Below the pieces are notes generated by a model. That model saw only the letters and a program-made list of their open reading frames with translations. It did not search any database and had not been told where the DNA came from. Below are positions 1,061 to 21,408 of a stretch of 64,000 bases of DNA, one piece after another (position 1 is the stretch's first letter; each line of letters starts with the position of its first letter). Origin of the DNA: a virus; IMG/VR virus record IMGVR_UViG_3300026488_000013, positions 1-64,000 of that record. One strand, 5' to 3'. The position numbers and the translations under genes were made by a program.

Positions 1061-3133
1061 TTATTTATATATAAATAGATTACTTCCGGCATCGTAAATA
1101 ACTCTAAACCCATTCGAAAGGACATTTTCTAATTCAGTTAGATTATGATTATAATTCTCGAATAAATCCTTTAATTTGTGTTTTATGAAATACTGTCTAG
1201 GTAGCAATCTTATTTCCGAAACATCACATAATTTTGTAAAATAATAATAATTGGGATGGTTGGTTGTTTTATGAAATTTAAAATTATTTATTGTTAAATA
1301 ATTCTCTGTAAGAAGATTATTAATTCTCCTATCAATATAACTGTAAACAAAACTAATATTACTAATTTTATTTATAAAATGTCGAAACAATCTAGAAAAT
1401 GAACCTGGTATTACATAATCAATTCTATTTACAAACCGTATTATTTCATAAACACCTTCTTTATACTTTTGAAACCTGCCTTTTCCAATTATCAATCCTG
1501 AATAAATATCGTTATATTCATCCTCTAAAGTTAAATAAATTAAACCTGTATGAAAGCCGTGTAAGTGATTTAAATTAAAGAATTCCCTAATTTTATCATT
1601 AGGTTTATCGTAAATTTTTACATTCAATTTTCGTGCATAAATTTTATTATTAATAATTCCAAGCTTAGCTTTTATTATATTAATCCATATTTTTCTTTTT
1701 ATTTCATTATACCATTCGTTTTCAAAAATTTGCAAAAGAAGTATATTTTGCTTTGCTGCGGCACTGGCCTTTTTATAATGTTTCCATTTTAATAGGTTAA
1801 ATTCTTCTTCGTCATAATACTCAATCAACCCAGCACTATGAAAAAATATTCCATGTAATTCAACACCCAATTTTAAATTCGGTAAAAAAATATCTATTTC
1901 ATAATTCGAACCGGGTATTTTCCTAAGTTTCAATATTTCTCCTTTATACCCTATTTCGTTTCGTAATACTCTAACAAAATCGGATTCAAACTTTGAAGAA
2001 ATACATATAGGACAATAAATTCCATTTTCAAAAGTATTTACTGAAACTTCTACAGCACCATGTTTCGTACATATAACACTTATCCTATCATTAATGGACA
2101 ACGGAAAAGTTATTTTATTAAAGTCTAGATAAAATCTAGAATTATATTCATACTTATAAATTTTCTTTACCAGATTTTCTAAATCTCCTTTCGTTTGGTA
2201 TTTTTTCTGTTTGTCACCTGCAATAATTCGCCCACACTTAAAACATCCATTTCCCCTTACAAAATTTGTAATGTAACTTTCAAACTCACCGTGCAAAGGG
2301 CATACAACGGTAATTTTATCTTTATAAGATTTTTTACCATCAAAATACTTTATTTTATATTTTTCTCCATATAACCTTCTCGCAACCTCGACAATTTTTT
2401 CATATGTCCAATTTCTTCTTTCGTAATTCTTCTTTTTAATATCATTTTCTATACACATAACACATGGAATATTTCCCTTTCTTATATAAAGAAGATGATA
2501 CCATTTATATTGCTGTTTACCATGTTTAGGGCATAAAATAGTTACTTTTGCCTCTTTTACAGGTTTATCAAATTCCGTTTCATCTTCTATCAATTTATAT
2601 TTTTTATAATCAAACTTATTTTTGTAAATTTGAATCAATTCTTCCTTCGAAAATTTATTCTTAGATTTTATTTCCTTACGACATTCCGGACAATTTTCAA
2701 ATCTGTAAATTCCATTTTTATATGCTTCAATTTTATCATTTAAAAATAGCGAACCAGCAACAATATTAAAAATTTGATTGTGTTTCTTACAAACACATGT
2801 AATCTTACTCCGCAAATTCGTAAATTCCTCTTTTAATTTTGGAAATTTTAAATGTTTGTCCAATTTGTATTTTTTAACTAATTTTAAAAAATTATTTACT
2901 CCCAGCTCACAGTTTTTACATCTCTTTATTTTTCTATTATTCGTATGCAACAATCTGCGGGCTTCAACATAATATTCAGCACCACACTGTTTACATTTTA
3001 TTCGAATTTTTGTGGTTACTTTAAATTTATCTATTTCTTCAGGTTTCGTTACAATATCGAATTTCGAATTTATTTCTCTATTATCTTGGGAATAAAATTT
3101 GTCCAGAAAAACGAGAAATTTTTCCTTACTCAT
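1061..3133 (-). CDS. Free-standing homing endonuclease (Hef/Vsr-like PD-(D/E)xK, with CxxHG zinc repeats)
   Basis: Repeated CPKHG/CPLHG/CTKHG...CxxC modules; EIDIFLPNLKLGVELHGIFFH nuclease motif; C-terminal NHLHG...YDAG domain. ATG 3133 has a GGAGGG RBS. Confidence 0.75.
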   Translation of the reverse strand: MSKEKFLVFLDKFYSQDNREINSKFDIVTKPEEIDKFKVTTKIRIKCKQCGAEYYVEARRLLHTNNRKIKRCKNCELGVNNFLKLVKKYKLDKHLKFPKLKEEFTNLRSKITCVCKKHNQIFNIVAGSLFLNDKIEAYKNGIYRFENCPECRKEIKSKNKFSKEELIQIYKNKFDYKKYKLIEDETEFDKPVKEAKVTILCPKHGKQQYKWYHLLYIRKGNIPCVMCIENDIKKKNYERRNWTYEKIVEVARRLYGEKYKIKYFDGKKSYKDKITVVCPLHGEFESYITNFVRGNGCFKCGRIIAGDKQKKYQTKGDLENLVKKIYKYEYNSRFYLDFNKITFPLSINDRISVICTKHGAVEVSVNTFENGIYCPICISSKFESDFVRVLRNEIGYKGEILKLRKIPGSNYEIDIFLPNLKLGVELHGIFFHSAGLIEYYDEEEFNLLKWKHYKKASAAAKQNILLLQIFENEWYNEIKRKIWINIIKAKLGIINNKIYARKLNVKIYDKPNDKIREFFNLNHLHGFHTGLIYLTLEDEYNDIYSGLIIGKGRFQKYKEGVYEIIRFVNRIDYVIPGSFSRLFRHFINKISNISFVYSYIDRRINNLLTENYLTINNFKFHKTTNHPNYYYFTKLCDVSEIRLLPRQYFIKHKLKDLFENYNHNLTELENVLSNGFRVIYDAGSNLFIYK

Positions 3134-3213
3134 TGCTACTCCCTCCACAGTCAGTTACCCATCATCAAAATACAAGTCGACAACATTTTTATCGTAACAT
3201 TTTAATACTCATA

Positions 3214-5888: not shown

Positions 5889-6074
5889 TTAATACATTGA
5901 TTCTGGATTTTTTGTTAATTCATATATTCCTAATGCCAAATCCATATCGACGGATGGTTTAAATGATTTATATTTGACCGAAGATAACGCTCCCACTCTC
6001 GTCGATGGAGACAGATATTTCTTTAATTCTTCATTTGCTTTAGGTGTATGAACCGCATAAATATTAATTTGGTC
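5889..6074 (-). CDS. RNAP beta-prime (copy 1) exon 2
   Basis: DQINIYAVHTP...DMDLALGIYELT matches RpoC DQMAVHVP...QDMVLGLYYLT; joins in frame to exon 1 after intron removal. Confidence 0.9.
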   Translation of the reverse strand, partial: DQINIYAVHTPKANEELKKYLSPSTRVGALSSVKYKSFKPSVDMDLALGIYELTKNPESMY

Positions 6075-6267
6075 TTCTGTGTTCACACCGGCACGGGCCA
6101 TACCGGTGCCGCAGCATTACCCGCTGCCCCACGGTTTCCCGCAGGGGCCGGACTATATCTTCTCCGCCTCAGGGAATTAAATTAAGTTGTTATATAAATA
6201 AAAAAAGATATAACCTAAATAATAATTCTAAAATAGTTTTTTAATTTTGAAACTCATTAAATTTATT

Positions 6268-6400
6268 TATTTCTTTTTTTTGCTCAATTTGACTAAATGT
6301 TTCCATCTTTTAGCATTTCTTTTAAATTTATCGGGAGCATTTAATTCTTGTTTTTAATTTACTATCATAAAGATATTCATTAACCTTAATTATTATATTT
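6268..6400 (-). pseudogene. Possible decayed intron-endonuclease C-terminal remnant
   Basis: Frameshifted reading NIIIKVNEYLYDSKLK/QELNAPDKFKRNAKRWKHLVKLSKKKK* in the intron-sense direction within the P8 loop. Confidence 0.3.
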
Positions 6401-6437
6401 ATTCCATAAATCAATTTTAATATTAGAAGAATGGATT

Positions 6438-6447
6438 TATGGAAATA
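6438..6447 (+). promoter_or_regulatory. Phage promoter-like motif TATGGAAATA upstream of csx3
   Basis: Matches the recurrent motif; followed by AAGGAGG RBS and ATG 6477. Confidence 0.6.
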
Positions 6448-6476
6448 AAGAAATAAAAAAATTAAGGAGGTTGGAA

Positions 6477-6764
6477 ATGGTAAAATTTAAAACTACTTCT
6501 CAACAAAATTACACTCTCGTAGAATTTGAAATTGAAGGCGGTGTAATCGCTCCCGAGGAACTAAAACAGTTAACTCCTCCTAAAGTTGACCTGACAAAAC
6601 TAGTCGTATTAAGTGGTAGAGGCCCGATATGGTTGTACCTTTATCTGGCACATCATTATCATACCACTCCTGCACTGGCCAGCTACGACCCTAGAGTTGG
6701 AGGTGCAGTAATCACTCAAACTCACAGCCCTAAATATAAAATAGGAGAAATTGTACCTCTTTAA
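6477..6764 (+). CDS. csx3: Csx3/Crn3-family cyclic oligoadenylate ring nuclease, antisense inside the group I intron
   Basis: VVLSGRGPIWLY..LAH, YDPR.GGAV...H signature of Csx3; about 95 aa; AAGGAGG RBS. Confidence 0.9.
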   Translation: MVKFKTTSQQNYTLVEFEIEGGVIAPEELKQLTPPKVDLTKLVVLSGRGPIWLYLYLAHHYHTTPALASYDPRVGGAVITQTHSPKYKIGEIVPL

Positions 6765-6819
6765 CTTTTACTCTTTTTTTATTTTTCTTCTCACGATGGC
6801 ATAACTTAAATAGTCCTTT

Positions 6820-7160
6820 TATTTTATTTTCTTATTTACACATCATGTCGATAATTGTAATAAGACCATATATTTTATCCTTTAGTGTTTCCACTTAATA
6901 AGAATATAAAAGTATTGTTAAACCATCTGCACTGTAGATTTCAACATCAAAATCACTTTCATTATTTAAATATTCACAAATTCATTAATTACCTTTTATT
7001 TTGAAGAAAACGACTTCCTTAAATATCATTGATACTTTTACATAATTTTTATTCGGTCAAACTGTTTTAAGTAATTTAAACAATTTAATAGTATCTTCAG
7101 ATGCAAATCTCAACATTACATATACATTATCTACTTTATTATGTAAATCATTATTAATCT
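6820..7160 (-). pseudogene. Possible decayed LAGLIDADG-like intron ORF remnant
   Basis: Broken reading frames in the P8 loop, including ...DVEIYSADGLTI. Confidence 0.25.
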
Positions 7161-7431
7161 TCCTCTGAGGCAGAGCCCGGCGTTTCGTCCCGCCGTTATT
7201 GCCCATGACGGGACTACGGCTTAACGCCTAGTCTCTGAACCTTCCCCATAGGAGCTTTTAAAACTCCCTTAGGGGCTTGGCTGCGGGTTGTCCCCTTGAC
7301 TCCCCAACTTTTTACCATACCGGCAGCCATTACGCTACCGCCAGACAGGTATTTCCACCTGTCCTTGGTATCGGGAAGTTTTTGAGGAGTTTCCCGCAGT
7401 TAGCCGGGTTTAACGACGGCGACCAAAGGTT

Positions 7432-9348
7432 ACCGTCGCACTGTTTTTTAACATAACCGTATGCATCTACATATGTTCCGGTAATTAAAGTTGTAATATC
7501 CCATCCAATATTTTTATTTGCTGGTTCAACATTTATTATTTTTTTATAACCGTCCCTATGTAAAACTTTTTTACCTATTATTTCTTCGGACGGTTTCAAC
7601 AATTGTTTATTTTCGTCAATCAAATATTCCTTAGTAGTGGATGATATGAACTCAGTCCCATCTTCCATAATTATTTTTACCGTATTAATATTAGAATGCT
7701 CGTGCCAGAAAACAACTTTATCATAAACAAATTCATTCTTTTCCCTGTCGTATGCTAATATTTCTACTGGTTCTAATAATTCAAGAATTCTTACATGAAC
7801 TCCGTCCACTCTAGTATAGTTTTCTATTTCTCTGTGATTTACATATTTAGGTAAATCTTTAATATGGCATTTAATAAATCTATCATTATTAACTTTAACT
7901 TCTATTAAATCCCAATTGCAGTCTGCGCCGAGTGTTCCAAAGATTATTTGTGGTAATGATGCAACATACACATCTTCCTTATCGATAACTGGTTTCATTC
8001 CTATTGTTGAGTTATCATTTTCAACAGGGTGCCTTAATACTAAGACATATTTTTCATATCCATCGTATACACCATCTATGATTTCTTGCTCTAATTCAAT
8101 TAATTTTTCTTTTATTTGTTGTGGTACAGTCTTAGGATTTTTAACAATGTTATTTGTTAATTCTCTAAATGCACGGTCGGAAAATTTATCGCCTATTTGT
8201 GATTTAACCCATGTATAGATGTCAGAATATTTAGGATTTTTTGTTATATGATGAACAACGAATGGTTCATATAATTTAATTAAAAACATCCAAGGAACTT
8301 TTACTTCATTTGGTTTTAAATTTTTATCATGGGTCAAAACAAGTCTAACTGTATGGTCTAATCGTTTGGACAATTTAGCACTTCTTAATAGTTTTCCCTT
8401 TTGTCCAAAACCCAATATTCCTACTAATTCCAATGCTAATTTTTGCAACACTGGATGTATTTTTGAATAATAACTTTTTATCGGGTCTTCAGATATATCA
8501 GTCTTATTATCAGTAGCGGCACCAGAATCTGGTTCCTCATCTGATAAAAGGTTATTTAAATTCGATAAAACATTTTGAATATCTTCTGAATTGTTGTCAG
8601 ATTTATTATTTGTATTAATATCATTACCGGATTTGATAGTATGCTCTGGTTTGTTTTTATAATATAACTCCCTAATATTTTTATATTTATTTGAAATCCG
8701 TATAATTTCTTGGTATAACTGCGATATAGGGTTTTCTCTTAAAACTTTACCATCTTTAATAAATACATCTCTAAATGCGGCGGGCATTACCAAAAGTTTG
8801 TCTGTGAACAATGTATCTACTAATTCGATAAGAGTTTTTAAAATATCACCATTACCTTTGACAGTATTTACATAATTTTCCATTATCATAAATTCGTTAG
8901 TGTTTTTTTCATCCTTCAAGAAATGATAAAAATCCAGAGGGTATCTAAATTCCTTTATCGATTTTAGATTTTTCTCTTCATGAAACGGTTCTGTATAAAA
9001 TGAACCGTCTTCCATTAAATAAAACGGTTCCGATTGGAGAAATTTTTGATAAACAGATTTACCCAAAATAGAAGAAATTAATCCACCAGATACAAAATCA
9101 AATGTATATGGGTTTAAAACTGGTAAAGGTAGCTCAATATATGCAAATGTCTTTTTACGGCGGGATGAACCAATAGGTCCAAATATCTGCTCAGAATACA
9201 CTCCCTCGGGGTCTAATATTTTTTTACCACCTACTTTAATAACTGTTTTATCGGAGGTTATTTTTTTTAACTTATAACGTTTAATAAATTCGTTGTAATT
9301 TATGGGTTTTAGGTAAATTTGATTATTATTAATTTTTCCCTGTTCCAT
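7432..9348 (-). CDS. RNAP beta-prime (copy 1) exon 1, intein-containing
   Basis: DPEGVYSEQIFGP, LRSAKLSKRLDHTVRLV, LRHP, LGAD...CDG. The ORF track extension to 7330 is read-through into the intron. Confidence 0.9.
7441..7920 (-). mobile_element. 160-aa mini-intein, from Cys1 (CNWDL) to C-terminal Gln (GYVKKQ), +1 Cys
   Basis: Inserted between GAD and CDG; block F-like GWDITT..GTYVD..G; removal restores GADCDGD. Confidence 0.85.
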
Positions 9349-9606
9349 TCCTTCTTAATTTTTTTCTTAAAAAATAAGAAAAAATTTAATATTTAAAAAA
9401 TCTTCTACAGAAATAGAAAAATATGGTGGAATTGAATTTTAAAAATAAGATTCACTTGCTAATTTCAAGAAACATAATTAACATTAAAATTTTCAATATC
9501 GTTGGTATATTAGAAAGGAGGGGAAAACGGAAACAGAAATGGATTTTTGCTGTTTACACAATTAAAAAATCACAAACGTCAATTTAGCTCCTTTTTATTT
9601 TTTTAT

Positions 9607-9921
9607 AGAAAATCTGCGGGTAAAACCCTGTATCTATGGTGCAGGGATACAGCCCGACCGCCGTTAGGCGGTCGACAAATTTGAAATTTTGCATATAATT
9701 AAATTTTTAACATACCCGCCGATAGCGGGCACAAATAACAAAAATAAGCCCGCTATACCACCAACCTAAGGCGGGTATGTAGGCTAGAAGTAGCTCCACT
9801 ACCTACCTTCGGATAGGTAGGCAGGAGTAGGGGGAGCGTGAACCTCCCCGTGGTGGTAAGGCACCCCGTAGAGGGTGCAAACCCACCCGAAGCCTCGCAT
9901 CTATGATGCGGGGTAGTTCAC
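9607..9921 (+). mobile_element. ORF-less IS200/IS605-derived element (family B), copy 1, with structured RNA
   Basis: Follows TTTAT; left hairpin; TCGACA-N16-TATAAT; multiple stems; ends GAAGCCTCGCATCTATGATGCGGGGTAGTTCAC; homologous to 18232-18550. Confidence 0.85.
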
Positions 9922-10574
9922 TGTATGCCAACCAAATGTTTTAAAAATTCTATTACTTTTTCAAAGTCATTAGACCTATAAATTTCTTTTTTATCCTCAT
10001 TACCGGTATCATTTTTATCTGTTTGATTATCTATTATTCCTTCTTCTACTAACACAATTTCAATTGACTCTGTTTCATTACCATTTTCATTCAAAATTGC
10101 TTCATCGATATGAATAGGAACTTTTTCATCGCAATGCCACTTCTTGTATAATTCTTTTGCTTTCTCTGCAACTTTCTTATATTCTGGGTGTTTAAACATC
10201 CATTCGTTTGCTCTGTAATACGCCGCAACTACTAAGCCGCAATGTGGTTCGCATTTAACAACATTTCCCCTTTCATCTATAATAGGTGCCATTACAGGGA
10301 ATTTGGGATAAGGTTCTGCATCTGGAAGTAAAAATGCTTCTTTTCCACATGTCTGTAACATTTGTCGTCTCACAGATTTTCGCATTATCAACATTTTAAT
10401 TTCAGGTTCAACTAATCTTCTGGGTCTGGCGCCTTCTACAGTGGTTCGCCATTCTTTAATTATTTTCCCAACTACTTCTTTTCTGTATTCATCATTGTTT
10501 ATAAATTTATCTAAATTTACTTCTATAAATATTTCCTTCTTCGCCTTCCCACCATTACTGGTAATTTGTGACAT
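9918..10574 (-). CDS. Hypothetical protein with a Cys-containing CG..FL.P..FP..C..AAY.RA motif
   Basis: 218-aa ORF with GGAGG RBS; stop codon supplied by the element end. Confidence 0.75.
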   Translation of the reverse strand: MSQITSNGGKAKKEIFIEVNLDKFINNDEYRKEVVGKIIKEWRTTVEGARPRRLVEPEIKMLIMRKSVRRQMLQTCGKEAFLLPDAEPYPKFPVMAPIIDERGNVVKCEPHCGLVVAAYYRANEWMFKHPEYKKVAEKAKELYKKWHCDEKVPIHIDEAILNENGNETESIEIVLVEEGIIDNQTDKNDTGNEDKKEIYRSNDFEKVIEFLKHLVGIQ

Positions 10575-18149: not shown

Positions 18150-18231
18150 GCCTATCTCATATATATAAAAAAACGCATTAATATTAAATTTCTCTATTTA
18201 ATAATCTTCTAAAATCTTCTTCTGAATTTAT

Positions 18232-18550
18232 AGAAAATCTGCGGGGTAAAACCCCATATCTATGATGCGAGGATATAGCCTGCCCCACCGTTAGGCGGTG
18301 GACAAATTTGAAATTTTACATATAATTAAAATCTTAACATACCCGCCGATAGCGAGCCTAAATAACAAAAATAAGCCCGTTATACCACCGACCTAAGGCG
18401 GGTATGCAGGCTGAAAGTAGCTCCACTATCCCGCTGTATGGTGGGATAGGCAGGAGTAGGGGCGGTGTGAACCCGCCCGTGGTGGTAAGGCACCGCTTGG
18501 ACGGTGCAAACCCACCCGAAGCCTCGCATCATAGATGCGAGGCAGTTCAC
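18232..18550 (+). mobile_element. Family B element, copy 2
   Basis: Follows TTTAT, ends GTTCAC; colinear with 9607-9921, with compensatory changes in stems. Confidence 0.85.
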
Positions 18551-18602
18551 TTCCGGTCATATCAATTTTTCGACATAAAAATTTTATCTGAAAAAAACCG
18601 TT

Positions 18603-21296: not shown

Positions 21297-21346
21297 GTAA
21301 ACTGCCCCGCATCATAGATACAGGGGTTTTAGCCCGCAGTTTTTCT
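21297..21346 (-). mobile_element. Collapsed 50-bp family B element (left end fused to right end)
   Basis: TTTAT|AGAAAAACTGCGGGCTAAAACCCCTGTATCTATGATGCGGGGCAGTTTAC. Confidence 0.75.
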
Positions 21347-21408
21347 ATAAAAAGTTCTTCTAATTGTTAATTTATTTTTCTACTAATTGATACAGATAAT
21401 GAAATTAC

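What the first reader, a model, noticed from the sequence alone, without database searches (positions are those of the whole stretch)
6075..7431. Group I intron in an essential RNAP gene carries an antisense Csx3 ring nuclease where a homing endonuclease normally sits
Seen: the intron core (P/Q/R at about 7170-7420, S at about 6150) is split by a P8 stem whose 1-kb loop holds an intact csx3 ORF (6477-6764) on the opposite strand. The ORF has its own AAGGAGG RBS and the phage promoter motif (6438-6447), and is flanked by broken intron-sense frames. Known: Csx3/Crn3 degrades cyclic tetra-adenylate; the known viral anti-type-III ring nuclease AcrIII-1 belongs to a different family; intron loops usually carry endonucleases. 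Inferred: the phage captured a host ring nuclease as an anti-CRISPR and uses a self-splicing intron as a neutral cargo site, so the intron may be retained for its anti-defence cargo.
Basis: partly seen in the sequence, partly recalled or inferred. Interest (0 to 1): 0.92.

Follow-up and report, generated by a model that had tools for sequence, protein, structure and literature searches.

The report
Phage intron carrying a Csx3 gene
A self-splicing intron that splits the catalytic motif of a large phage's RNA polymerase gene carries, backwards in one of its loops, an intact copy of Csx3, the enzyme cells use to destroy the cyclic tetra-adenylate alarm of type III CRISPR. It is probably a phage counter-defence gene parked in a spot where insertions do no harm.

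Summary
A subgroup-IA group I intron on the minus strand (7431..6075) splits the NADFDGD codons of a phage RNAP beta' gene. Its 983-nt P8 loop holds an intact 95-aa Csx3/Crn3 gene on the plus strand (6477-6764). This gene scores 101 bits on TIGR02579 and E=1e-24 against AfCsx3, keeps every catalytic and cA4-binding residue, and has an AAGGAGG RBS and a weak copy of the phage's promoter motif.

Intronless relatives read GAD-C-DGD-QINIY, which fixes the splice junction. A relative (L136) has the same intron at the same site with all helices kept (11 compensatory pairs, 0 broken). It has no csx3. It carries two small sense ORFs instead, and the window keeps a frameshifted remnant of one of them. 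So csx3 replaced older cargo in a variable loop, and the intron is not there because of csx3.

The anti-type-III role is inferred, not shown. Host, expression and activity are all unknown. No phage Csx3 appears in 50,697 GenBank phages or in a published survey, but four IMG/VR contigs carry one. This scan has noted phage Csx3 before on other DNA, never in an intron.

One oddity is unexplained: the intron ends in A, not the canonical G.

The parts
7432..9348 (-). Exon 1 of the RNAP beta' N-terminal subunit gene. It ends ...GAD-[intein]-CDG.
   Evidence: ORF. Homologues P0042-P0045 are 41-58% identical. Weak Pfam RNA_pol_Rpb1_2 hit.
7441..7920 (-). 160-aa mini-intein (CNWD...KKQ) inside the NADFDGD motif, followed by Cys+1.
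   Evidence: Absent from P0043/44/45, which read GAD(C/S/N)DGDQ. P0042 has the same insertion with a LAGLIDADG domain. The fold was not confirmed (AF2 pLDDT 33).
6075..7431 (-). Group I intron, subgroup IA-like, with P7.1/P7.2 and an extended P5, 1357 nt long.
   Evidence: RF00028 at 68.1 bits. P1 and P10 read by hand. Against L136: 120 pairs, of which 96 are unchanged, 13 changed on one side, 11 compensatory and 0 broken.
7398..7411 (-). Internal guide UUUGGUC-GCCGUCG. It is complementary to the ligated exons CGACGGU-GACCAAA, with U.G at the 5' splice site.
   Evidence: Sequence. P1 co-varies in L009 (UGACGGU/GCCGUCA).
6177..7159 (-). P8 terminal loop, 983 nt, 21% GC outside csx3. This is the cargo bay.
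   Evidence: The P8 stem 7175-7160 / 6176-6162 closes it. Composition.
6477..6764 (+). csx3/crn3 gene, 95 aa, antisense to the intron.
   Evidence: PF09620 E=9.7e-29. TIGR02579 at 101 bits. PDB 6vjg E=1.4e-24 with S-G-R-G-P-I-W, H..H, D-P-R and the distal H all aligned. All 12 invariant columns of a 40-sequence alignment are kept.
6464..6470 (+). Shine-Dalgarno AAGGAGG, 6 nt before the ATG.
   Evidence: Sequence.
6438..6447 (+). Promoter-like motif TATGGAAATA, a variant of the phage's TATGGATAAT.
   Evidence: Motif statistics. Function not shown.
6258..6378 (-). Frameshifted remnant of the older intron-sense ORF (C-terminal ~40 aa of the L136-type winged-helix ORF).
   Evidence: tblastn E=4e-6 and 5e-5 in two frames. 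DNA homology of window 6414..5896 to L136 905-1362.
5889..6074 (-). Exon 2 (DQINIYAVHTPKAN... to the stop codon).
   Evidence: Contiguous with exon 1 in intronless P0043/44/45. 67% identical to P0048.

Best explanation
The window comes from an uncultivated, AT-rich large phage: a 167-kb IMG/VR record with a CheckV completeness estimate of 60%. One of its RNAP beta' genes is interrupted twice within the codons for the catalytic NADFDGD motif. A mini-intein is removed at the protein level. Nine nucleotides downstream, a group I intron is removed at the RNA level.

The intron is an old resident of this site. The long terminal loop of its P8 helix tolerates insertions as long as the P8 stem still forms. 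In this phage a small expression cassette (promoter-like motif, strong RBS, csx3) sits in that loop on the opposite strand. It has overwritten most of an earlier pair of sense-strand ORFs.

The product is a complete Crn3/Csx3 ring nuclease. By homology it should form head-to-tail dimers of dimers around cyclic tetra-adenylate and cleave it in a Mn-dependent reaction. A phage making it early in infection would remove the cA4 made by Cas10 of a type III CRISPR system. That would keep effectors such as Csx1, Csm6, Can1/2 or Cam1 switched off, so the protein would act as an anti-CRISPR.

Shown here: the anatomy, family membership, residue conservation, intron integrity, and the comparative history of the loop. 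Inferred: expression, enzymatic activity, the anti-CRISPR role, and that the intron location is simply a permissive site rather than functionally coupled to csx3.
For: Csx3 identity and intactness.

Selection on csx3:
- 95 open codons in a 21%-GC loop whose other frames are all broken.
- GC3 of 0.27 matches the phage's genes (0.24 +/- 0.03), while GC at positions 1 and 2 (0.46) exceeds every large phage ORF. The high GC is therefore protein constraint, not fresh foreign DNA.
- The neighbouring older ORF has decayed.

The nearest cellular homologue (61%) lies directly after Csx1 in a Cmr locus, which ties this clade to cA4 signalling.

No Cas10 and no second csx3 occur in the 167 kb.

Stand-alone csx3 occurs in four other IMG/VR contigs: next to primase/RecA/RNR, terminase/KilA-N/lysin, or a Tad2-like gene. 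The nearest protein by tree path (P0021) sits among ArdC-N and UvrD genes on a probable mobile element.

Intron functional and older than the cargo. Same-site introns in cultured jumbo phages.

Promoter motif family.
Against: - There is no expression data.
- The promoter copy is a weak variant, and no terminator was predicted.
- The host is unknown, so it is unknown whether it has a cA4-signalling type III system.
- Csx3 turnover is not known to be fast enough for an anti-CRISPR role.
- csx3 transcription runs head-on into an essential gene, and its mRNA is complementary to the intron RNA. This could limit expression, or it could mean something regulatory.
- This is a single assembly with one copy (P0001: 1 member, 1 contig).
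- One near-invariant Gly (consensus KGVV) is Leu here.
Confidence: 0.6

Rival explanations
1. csx3 is a silent or nearly neutral passenger. It landed in the one place where an insertion is harmless and has no role in infection.
For: The loop is demonstrably a dumping ground: older ORFs decayed there. The promoter match is weak. The arrangement has been seen only once.
Against: The frame is fully open with every invariant residue kept, in a 21%-GC context where other frames are broken. Third codon positions match the phage's composition, which suggests long residence under selection. The RBS is strong.
Confidence: 0.12
2. The Csx3 protein acts on something other than type III cA4. It might degrade or sequester another cyclic oligonucleotide (CBASS-type signals), or act as the RNA deadenylase first described for AfCsx3.
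For: Other ring nucleases such as Csx15 also cut CBASS signals (bioRxiv 10.64898/2026.10.26.761840). AfCsx3 was first reported as an RNA deadenylase (PMC7371418).
Against: All cA4-contacting residues of AfCsx3 are conserved. Crn3 is described as cA4-specific (PMC7371418). The nearest cellular homologue is next to Csx1.
Confidence: 0.1
3. The location is functional. Either the antisense csx3 transcript and the intron RNA regulate each other (timing of RNAP subunit splicing against csx3 expression), or the intron serves as a vehicle that moves csx3 between co-infecting phages by homing or co-conversion.
For: There is perfect complementarity between the csx3 mRNA and the excised intron. Intron-containing alleles of this site are spread across very distant jumbo phages. 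Free-standing HNH or Zn-ribbon nucleases lie beside beta' genes in relatives and in this genome. An intron endonuclease mediates phage competition in PhiPA3 (PMC11620839).
Against: No second csx3-bearing intron was found in viral or metagenome contigs. The intron itself holds no endonuclease. Relatives keep the intron without csx3.
Confidence: 0.12
4. Assembly artefact: csx3 was joined into the intron by misassembly of a metagenome.
For: Single contig. Reads could not be examined.
Against: The insert lies exactly inside a loop closed by an intact 15-bp stem. Its flanks are phage-like AT-rich DNA carrying the phage's own promoter motif, an RBS, and a remnant homologous to the relative's loop. 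GC3 matches the phage. A chimera would need two breakpoints within 1 kb.
Confidence: 0.03

Closest known systems
Crn3/Csx3 of Archaeoglobus fulgidus AF1864 (PDB 6VJG, 6YUD, 3WZI; PF09620, TIGR02579)
   Same: About 50% identity over 91 residues. Same length class. Every residue named as catalytic or cA4-binding is conserved: S44, G45, R46, I49, H57, H60, D69, R71, H80 (PMC7371418).
   Different: Encoded by a phage, not beside cas genes. It lies inside an intron on the antisense strand. Activity and oligomeric state are untested.
Viral ring nucleases: AcrIII-1 (DUF1874/Crn2 family), viral SAVED, proposed viral Csx15, and Csx16/Csx20 in a few phages
   Same: The same predicted strategy: a small virus-encoded enzyme that destroys the type III second messenger.
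   Different: An unrelated fold and family. A survey of 28,114 phage genomes listed AcrIII-1, Csx20 and Csx16 and reported no Crn3 (PMC12409355). tblastn against 50,697 GenBank phages found none, and there is no PHROG for it.
PhiPA3 gp210 intron (group I intron in a jumbo-phage RNAP gene carrying an HNH homing endonuclease; PMC11620839)
   Same: A group I intron inserted next to catalytic aspartates of a jumbo-phage multisubunit RNAP gene, with a cargo gene that benefits the phage.
   Different: That intron is in the beta subunit, and its cargo is a sense-strand homing endonuclease used against competing phages. Here the intron is in beta', and the cargo is an antisense ring nuclease with no endonuclease.
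Same-site ORF-less introns in the RNAP beta' genes of cultured jumbo phages (Aeromonas AerS_266 and pAEv1810, Shewanella FishSpeaker)
   Same: Same insertion point (after GACGGU of D-F-D-G), same guide logic, homologous core.
   Different: They are compact (about 350 nt), carry no cargo in P8, and end in the canonical G. The window's intron is 1357 nt and ends in A.
T4 td / nrdB / sunY introns (subgroup IA with endonuclease ORFs looped out of peripheral helices). This comparison is from my own knowledge.
   Same: Phage IA-type introns in essential genes, with an ORF that has its own expression signals in a peripheral loop.
   Different: The T4 ORFs are sense-strand homing endonucleases.

Membership tests
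Crn3/Csx3 ring nuclease (PF09620 / TIGR02579) | Profile score above the curated cut-offs | tested here: met
   PF09620 at 99.5 bits (cut-off 21). TIGR02579 equivalog at 101 bits (cut-off 55.4).
Crn3/Csx3 ring nuclease (PF09620 / TIGR02579) | cA4-binding face: S-G-R-G-P-I-W loop and the D69-x-R71 pair | tested here: met
   Aligned residue for residue to 6vjg. Invariant in the 40-sequence alignment.
Crn3/Csx3 ring nuclease (PF09620 / TIGR02579) | Metal/catalytic face: H57, H60, H80 | tested here: met
   LAHHYH and QTHS align to LAHKYH and QSHS of AfCsx3.
Crn3/Csx3 ring nuclease (PF09620 / TIGR02579) | Head-to-tail tetramer sandwiching cA4; Mn-dependent cleavage | not testable with these tools
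   Needs biochemistry.
Crn3/Csx3 ring nuclease (PF09620 / TIGR02579) | Genomic association with a type III CRISPR locus | tested here: not met
   No Cas10 in the 167-kb record. The gene lies in a phage intron. This bears on its role, not on family membership.
Group I intron (RF00028), subgroup IA-like | Conserved core P3-P8 with the P7 pseudoknot, above Rfam's gathering score | tested here: met
   68.1 bits against a gathering score of 50 for the 5' core, plus the J8/7-P7'-P9 segment. The whole-window scan with default filters missed it, because the model is split by the 1-kb loop.
Group I intron (RF00028), subgroup IA-like | P1 with a U.G wobble at the 5' splice site and an adjoining P10 | tested here: met
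   A 14-nt guide is complementary to the ligated exons. P1 co-varies in L009.
Group I intron (RF00028), subgroup IA-like | Structure maintained by compensatory change | tested here: met
   11 double-sided and 13 single-sided changes, 0 broken pairs of 120, against L136 at 80% identity.
Group I intron (RF00028), subgroup IA-like | 3'-terminal guanosine (omega-G) | tested here: not met
   The junction fixed by P10 and by intronless homologues puts A at 6075. L136 also ends in A. AerS_266, pAEv1810 and FishSpeaker end in G.
Group I intron (RF00028), subgroup IA-like | Precise excision restores a conserved reading frame | tested here: met
   Predicted product GAD-C-DGD-QINIYAVHTPKAN equals intronless P0043. 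Splicing itself was not observed.
Anti-CRISPR (type III, ring-nuclease class) | Encoded by a virus or other mobile element | tested here: met
   IMG/VR virus record with two RNAP sets, inteins and phage genes.
Anti-CRISPR (type III, ring-nuclease class) | Inhibits CRISPR immunity in vivo; expressed early | not testable with these tools
   No reads were obtainable. The promoter evidence is indirect.
Intron-encoded homing endonuclease | LAGLIDADG, GIY-YIG, HNH, His-Cys or PD-(D/E)xK domain in the intron ORF | tested here: not met
   No such domain in any frame of the loop, nor in the cargo of L136.
Intein (the neighbouring insertion in beta') | In-frame insertion absent from homologues, Cys1 and Cys+1, HEG-bearing variant at the same site | tested here: met
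Intein (the neighbouring insertion in beta') | Block B TxxH, C-terminal His-Asn, Hint fold | tested here: inconclusive
   It reads TKEY and ends KKQ. Profile hits are below cut-off. The single-sequence model was unusable (pLDDT 33).

The most novel reading that the evidence does not exclude
The long P8 loop of this widespread RNAP-site intron is an exchangeable cargo bay. Promoter-led cassettes, here an anti-CRISPR ring nuclease, swap in and out of it and are carried between co-infecting jumbo phages when the intron is copied into intronless alleles. In addition, this lineage would be a natural group I intron that completes exon ligation with a 3'-terminal adenosine instead of the universal guanosine.
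Probability: 0.2. Interest if true: 0.85.

Novelty: new variant of a known kind. Interest (0 to 1): 0.64.

Why it matters
Type III CRISPR senses RNA, so it can still see phages that hide or modify their DNA. Viral enzymes that erase its cyclic-oligoadenylate signal are therefore key counter-measures.

The papers I could search describe viral ring nucleases of the AcrIII-1, SAVED, Csx15, Csx16 and Csx20 kinds, but none of the Crn3/Csx3 kind. This gene, together with four more in IMG/VR and several earlier notes of this scan, points to Csx3 as a further, untested viral anti-CRISPR family.

The setting is new. It shows that a self-splicing intron in an essential gene can serve as a safe harbour for non-endonuclease, opposite-strand cargo, and that such cargo turns over while the ribozyme stays under selection.

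The adenosine at the intron's 3' end, conserved in two diverged copies that otherwise keep every helix, bears directly on how strictly group I ribozymes need their terminal G. It can be settled with one RT-PCR.

Tried and rejected
- A whole-window Rfam scan at gathering threshold found nothing. Only a local E-value scan found the intron.
- Single-protein scans of IMG/VR for beta' and for Csx3 found no relatives.
- A 17-nt intron-core pattern gave 7 viral and more than 118 metagenome hits. All but none were chance: blastn kept only L009. No further copy of the loop could be surveyed.
- Nine stop-free fragments of the loop gave no Pfam or PHROG hit.
- No sigma-70-type promoter or intrinsic terminator stood above shuffles.
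- Repeat search in the loop gave only AT-rich low-complexity pairs, apart from an inverted pair of promoter-like motifs at 6390-6416 / 6430-6456 on the homology border.
- The right flank of csx3 has no copy elsewhere in the genome.
- The Csx3 tree (138 rows, 104 columns) is unresolved. The five viral copies are scattered, but independent capture is not proven. The careful search did not finish, so a quick tree was used.
- A chimallin search in the 167 kb found nothing. This is inconclusive: one query, and the record is about 60% complete.
- The mini-intein fold failed.
- The L136 cargo ORF folds as a winged-helix-like protein, but no PDB match reached significance, and the Atlas gave only unnamed archaeal clusters.
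- MAFFT did not support my by-eye match between the 5' side of the two loops, so I dropped it.
Full report
**What is in the sequence**

The region lies in an AT-rich virus record of 167,050 bp (28% GC), rated about 60% complete by CheckV. About five sixths of its genes are on the minus strand.

The large minus-strand ORF 9348..7330 is the N-terminal part of a multisubunit RNAP beta' subunit. A local Rfam scan places a group I intron core on the minus strand at 7411..7175 (68.1 bits, gathering score 50). It also places the J8/7-P7'-P9 segment near 6175..6128. This is the only RF00028 match in the record. The whole-window scan with default filters missed it, because 1 kb of loop splits the model.

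**Splice sites**

On the minus strand, exon 1 ends ...UGC GAC GGU. The intron begins AACCUUUGGUC GCCGUCG.
- GCCGUCG pairs with the exon end CGACGGU, with a U.G wobble at the junction. This is P1.
- The seven bases just 5' of it, UUUGGUC, are complementary to GACCAAA at 6074..6068. This is P10.
- The guide therefore reads as a continuous 14-nt complement of the ligated exons.

Three intronless homologues from metagenomes read GAD(C/S/N)DGDQ(I/L)NIYA..., which is exactly the predicted product.

These homologues also lack 160 residues that the window has between GAD and CDG. A fourth homologue (P0042, locus L009) has the same insertion enlarged by a LAGLIDADG domain. That insertion is therefore an intein (7920..7441), beginning with Cys and followed by Cys. 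The catalytic NADFDGD motif is thus interrupted twice within 12 nucleotides: once at the protein level and once at the RNA level.

**Is the intron alive?**

Two relatives carry the same intron at the same site.
- L009 breaks off inside P3', but it shows a compensatory change in P1 (UGACGGU with GCCGUCA).
- L136, a 1362-bp contig, holds a complete copy of 935 nt.

With the P8 loops removed, the two introns are 80% identical. Of 120 predicted pairs, 96 are unchanged, 13 changed on one side, 11 changed on both sides and none is broken. This supports continued selection on the fold, including P9, P9.1 and P9.2.

The helices between P7 and P3 (P7.1/P7.2) and the J8/7-P7 sequence are those typical of phage IA introns. 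That statement rests on the Rfam alignment and my own knowledge of the subgroup.

The same site (after GACGGU of D-F-D-G) is occupied by compact, ORF-less homologous introns in cultured jumbo phages. Examples are Aeromonas AerS_266 and pAEv1810 and Shewanella FishSpeaker, with weaker matches in Klebsiella Miami, Pseudomonas and Vibrio phages. A group I intron in a jumbo-phage RNAP gene is therefore ordinary. A published example in the beta subunit of PhiPA3 carries an HNH endonuclease used in phage competition (PMC11620839).

**An unexplained detail**

The junction fixed by P10 and by the homologues makes the last intron base an A, at window 6075 (...CAGAA|GACC). L136 also ends in A (...CAGUA|GACC). 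AerS_266, pAEv1810 and FishSpeaker end in the canonical G directly before the Asp codon. The P7 helix that forms the guanosine pocket looks normal.

The only reading that keeps a terminal G (6077) and the reading frame moves the 5' site two bases upstream, onto a G-C pair. That would turn DGD into DED here and DVD in L136. I rate the terminal-A reading about 70% and the shifted reading about 25%. One RT-PCR decides.

**The cargo**

The P8 stem (7175-7160 with 6176-6162, 15 pairs and one bulge) closes a 983-nt loop that is 21% GC outside one island. That island is a plus-strand ORF from ATG 6477 to 6764, 95 codons, preceded by AAGGAGG six bases upstream.

It is Csx3/Crn3:
- PF09620 E=9.7e-29.
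- TIGR02579 equivalog at 101 bits against a cut-off of 55.
- E=1.4e-24 and about 50% identity to the solved A. fulgidus enzyme.

The residues shown by mutagenesis and structure to bind cA4 or to be needed for cleavage are S44, G45, R46, I49, D69, R71 on one face and H57, H60, H80 on the other (PMC7371418). All of them align. All twelve invariant columns of a 40-member alignment are kept. The one departure is Leu for a near-invariant Gly in KGVV.

**Is it under selection, or fresh junk?**

- 95 open codons have a probability of about 3e-3 at the ORF's own composition and 3e-4 at the loop's composition. No other frame in the loop exceeds 48 codons.
- Its third-position GC (0.27) matches the phage's genes (0.24 +/- 0.03).
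- Its first and second positions (0.46) are more GC-rich than those of any large phage ORF. The GC island therefore reflects the Gly/Pro/Arg/His-rich conserved protein, not unameliorated foreign DNA.

**History of the loop**

L136 has no csx3. Its loop holds a sense-strand cassette:
- the phage-type motif TACGGATAAT eight bases before an ATG;
- a 50-aa hydrophobic peptide;
- a Shine-Dalgarno site and a 108-aa ORF that folds as a winged-helix-like protein (pLDDT 82) with only weak MarR/PadR-like matches.

Window 6414..6190 is homologous to the end of that ORF but is broken by a frameshift and stops. Window 7160..6415, which holds csx3, its RBS and its promoter-like motif, has no counterpart in L136. 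So csx3 arrived in a loop that already held other cargo and displaced most of it.

The border of homology coincides with an inverted pair of promoter-like motifs (6390-6416 / 6430-6456). This hints at recombination between promoter copies, but that is speculation.

**Expression signals**

The genome has a clear motif, TA(T/C)GG(A/T)TAAT. More than a dozen copies sit exactly 18 nt before an ATG with no Shine-Dalgarno site, a leaderless-type spacing. A second class lies 30-60 nt upstream of an SD plus ATG. Of 45 TATGGAWAWW hits, 24 are intergenic, against 12% non-coding DNA.

The csx3 copy (TATGGAAATA, 39 nt upstream) belongs to the second class and is a weak match. It ranks 43rd of 334,054 positions, about a 1% chance in a 60-nt window. 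No sigma-70-type promoter or intrinsic terminator stands out.

All neighbouring genes are on the other strand, so csx3 needs a promoter of its own. Its transcript would run head-on into beta' transcription and would be complementary to the intron RNA.

**Context for the anti-CRISPR reading**

- The nearest cellular homologue (61%) sits immediately after Csx1 in an archaeal Cmr locus.
- The phage record has no Cas10 and only this one csx3.
- tblastn finds no Csx3 in 50,697 GenBank phage records, and there is no PHROG for it.
- A survey of 28,114 phage genomes found AcrIII-1, Csx20 and Csx16 and listed no Crn3 (PMC12409355).
- Later papers add a viral SAVED protein and viral Csx15 (PMC12751052; bioRxiv 10.64898/2026.10.26.761840).

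A profile-guided scan of IMG/VR does find four stand-alone csx3 genes in viral contigs of 80-273 kb. One lies between a primase and RecA/RNR genes. One is next to terminase, KilA-N and a lysin. One is near a Tad2-like gene. One lies directly behind a hammerhead ribozyme. The protein nearest by tree path lies among ArdC-N and UvrD genes.

This scan's earlier notes list at least seven other phage Csx3 genes on other DNA, none in an intron. Phage Csx3 is therefore a recurrent but unpublished candidate anti-CRISPR family. The tree is too poorly resolved to say whether the viral copies were captured independently.

**Verdict**

The anatomy is real and well supported. The best explanation, at about 0.6, has three parts:
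- csx3 is an expressed Crn3-type ring nuclease that blunts cA4 signalling by a host type III system.
- It is lodged in a permissive intron loop.
- The intron is much older than its cargo and does not depend on it.

The rivals are a silent passenger, another substrate, functional coupling with the intron, and misassembly. They are listed with their tests. The host, the transcript, the enzyme activity and the actual splice product are all untested.

Noticed in passing
window 6075 (and L136 1187): The intron's 3'-terminal nucleotide is A, not the canonical G, in two diverged copies. Same-site introns in AerS_266, pAEv1810 and FishSpeaker end in G.
   Followed up: partly
window 7441-7920 (minus): A 160-aa mini-intein sits inside NADFDGD, 9 nt upstream of the intron. 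It ends in Gln rather than Asn, and block B reads TKEY. A relative (P0042/L009) has the same intein with a LAGLIDADG domain, and three relatives lack it.
   Followed up: partly
window 9600-9935 and 18227-18551: A GC-rich, strongly structured ~330-nt element (fold z = -5 and -7) with no Rfam match. A second copy is 85.5% identical, and fragments occur at 21305-21353 and at genome position 123851-123893. It is absent from relative L009, where the upstream gene abuts beta'.
   Followed up: partly
whole genome, e.g. window 14942, 15970, 17437, 22815, 26230, 31763, 37359: The promoter-like motif TA(T/C)GG(A/T)TAAT lies exactly 18 nt before ATG codons with no Shine-Dalgarno site, which suggests leaderless transcripts. 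A second class lies 30-60 nt upstream of an SD plus ATG.
   Followed up: partly
L003 7937-8004: A Hammerhead_II ribozyme (51 bits) lies immediately upstream of a stand-alone csx3 in a 92-kb IMG/VR contig.
   Followed up: no
L140 (Aeromonas phage AerS_266, OR496884.1 ~115080-115880): Two unannotated group I introns (60.7 and 43.3 bits) flank a tiny exon that encodes MADFDG in the PhiKZ-like RNAP gene. Exon 2 is annotated as a separate hypothetical protein. Anti-CBASS and anti-Thoeris genes lie just downstream.
   Followed up: partly
L002 3489-4088: A Tad2-like (Thoeris anti-defence) domain protein lies 4 kb from csx3 in a 272-kb viral contig.
   Followed up: no
window 1061-3148 (minus): A 695-aa protein with repeated Zn-ribbon/DUF723 units lies directly downstream of the beta' C-terminal gene. 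It may be a free-standing nuclease. Relative L009 has an HNH endonuclease beside its beta' gene.
   Followed up: no
L136 565-1071: The cargo of the relative's intron loop is a promoter motif, a 50-aa hydrophobic peptide and a 108-aa winged-helix-like ORF of no known family.
   Followed up: partly
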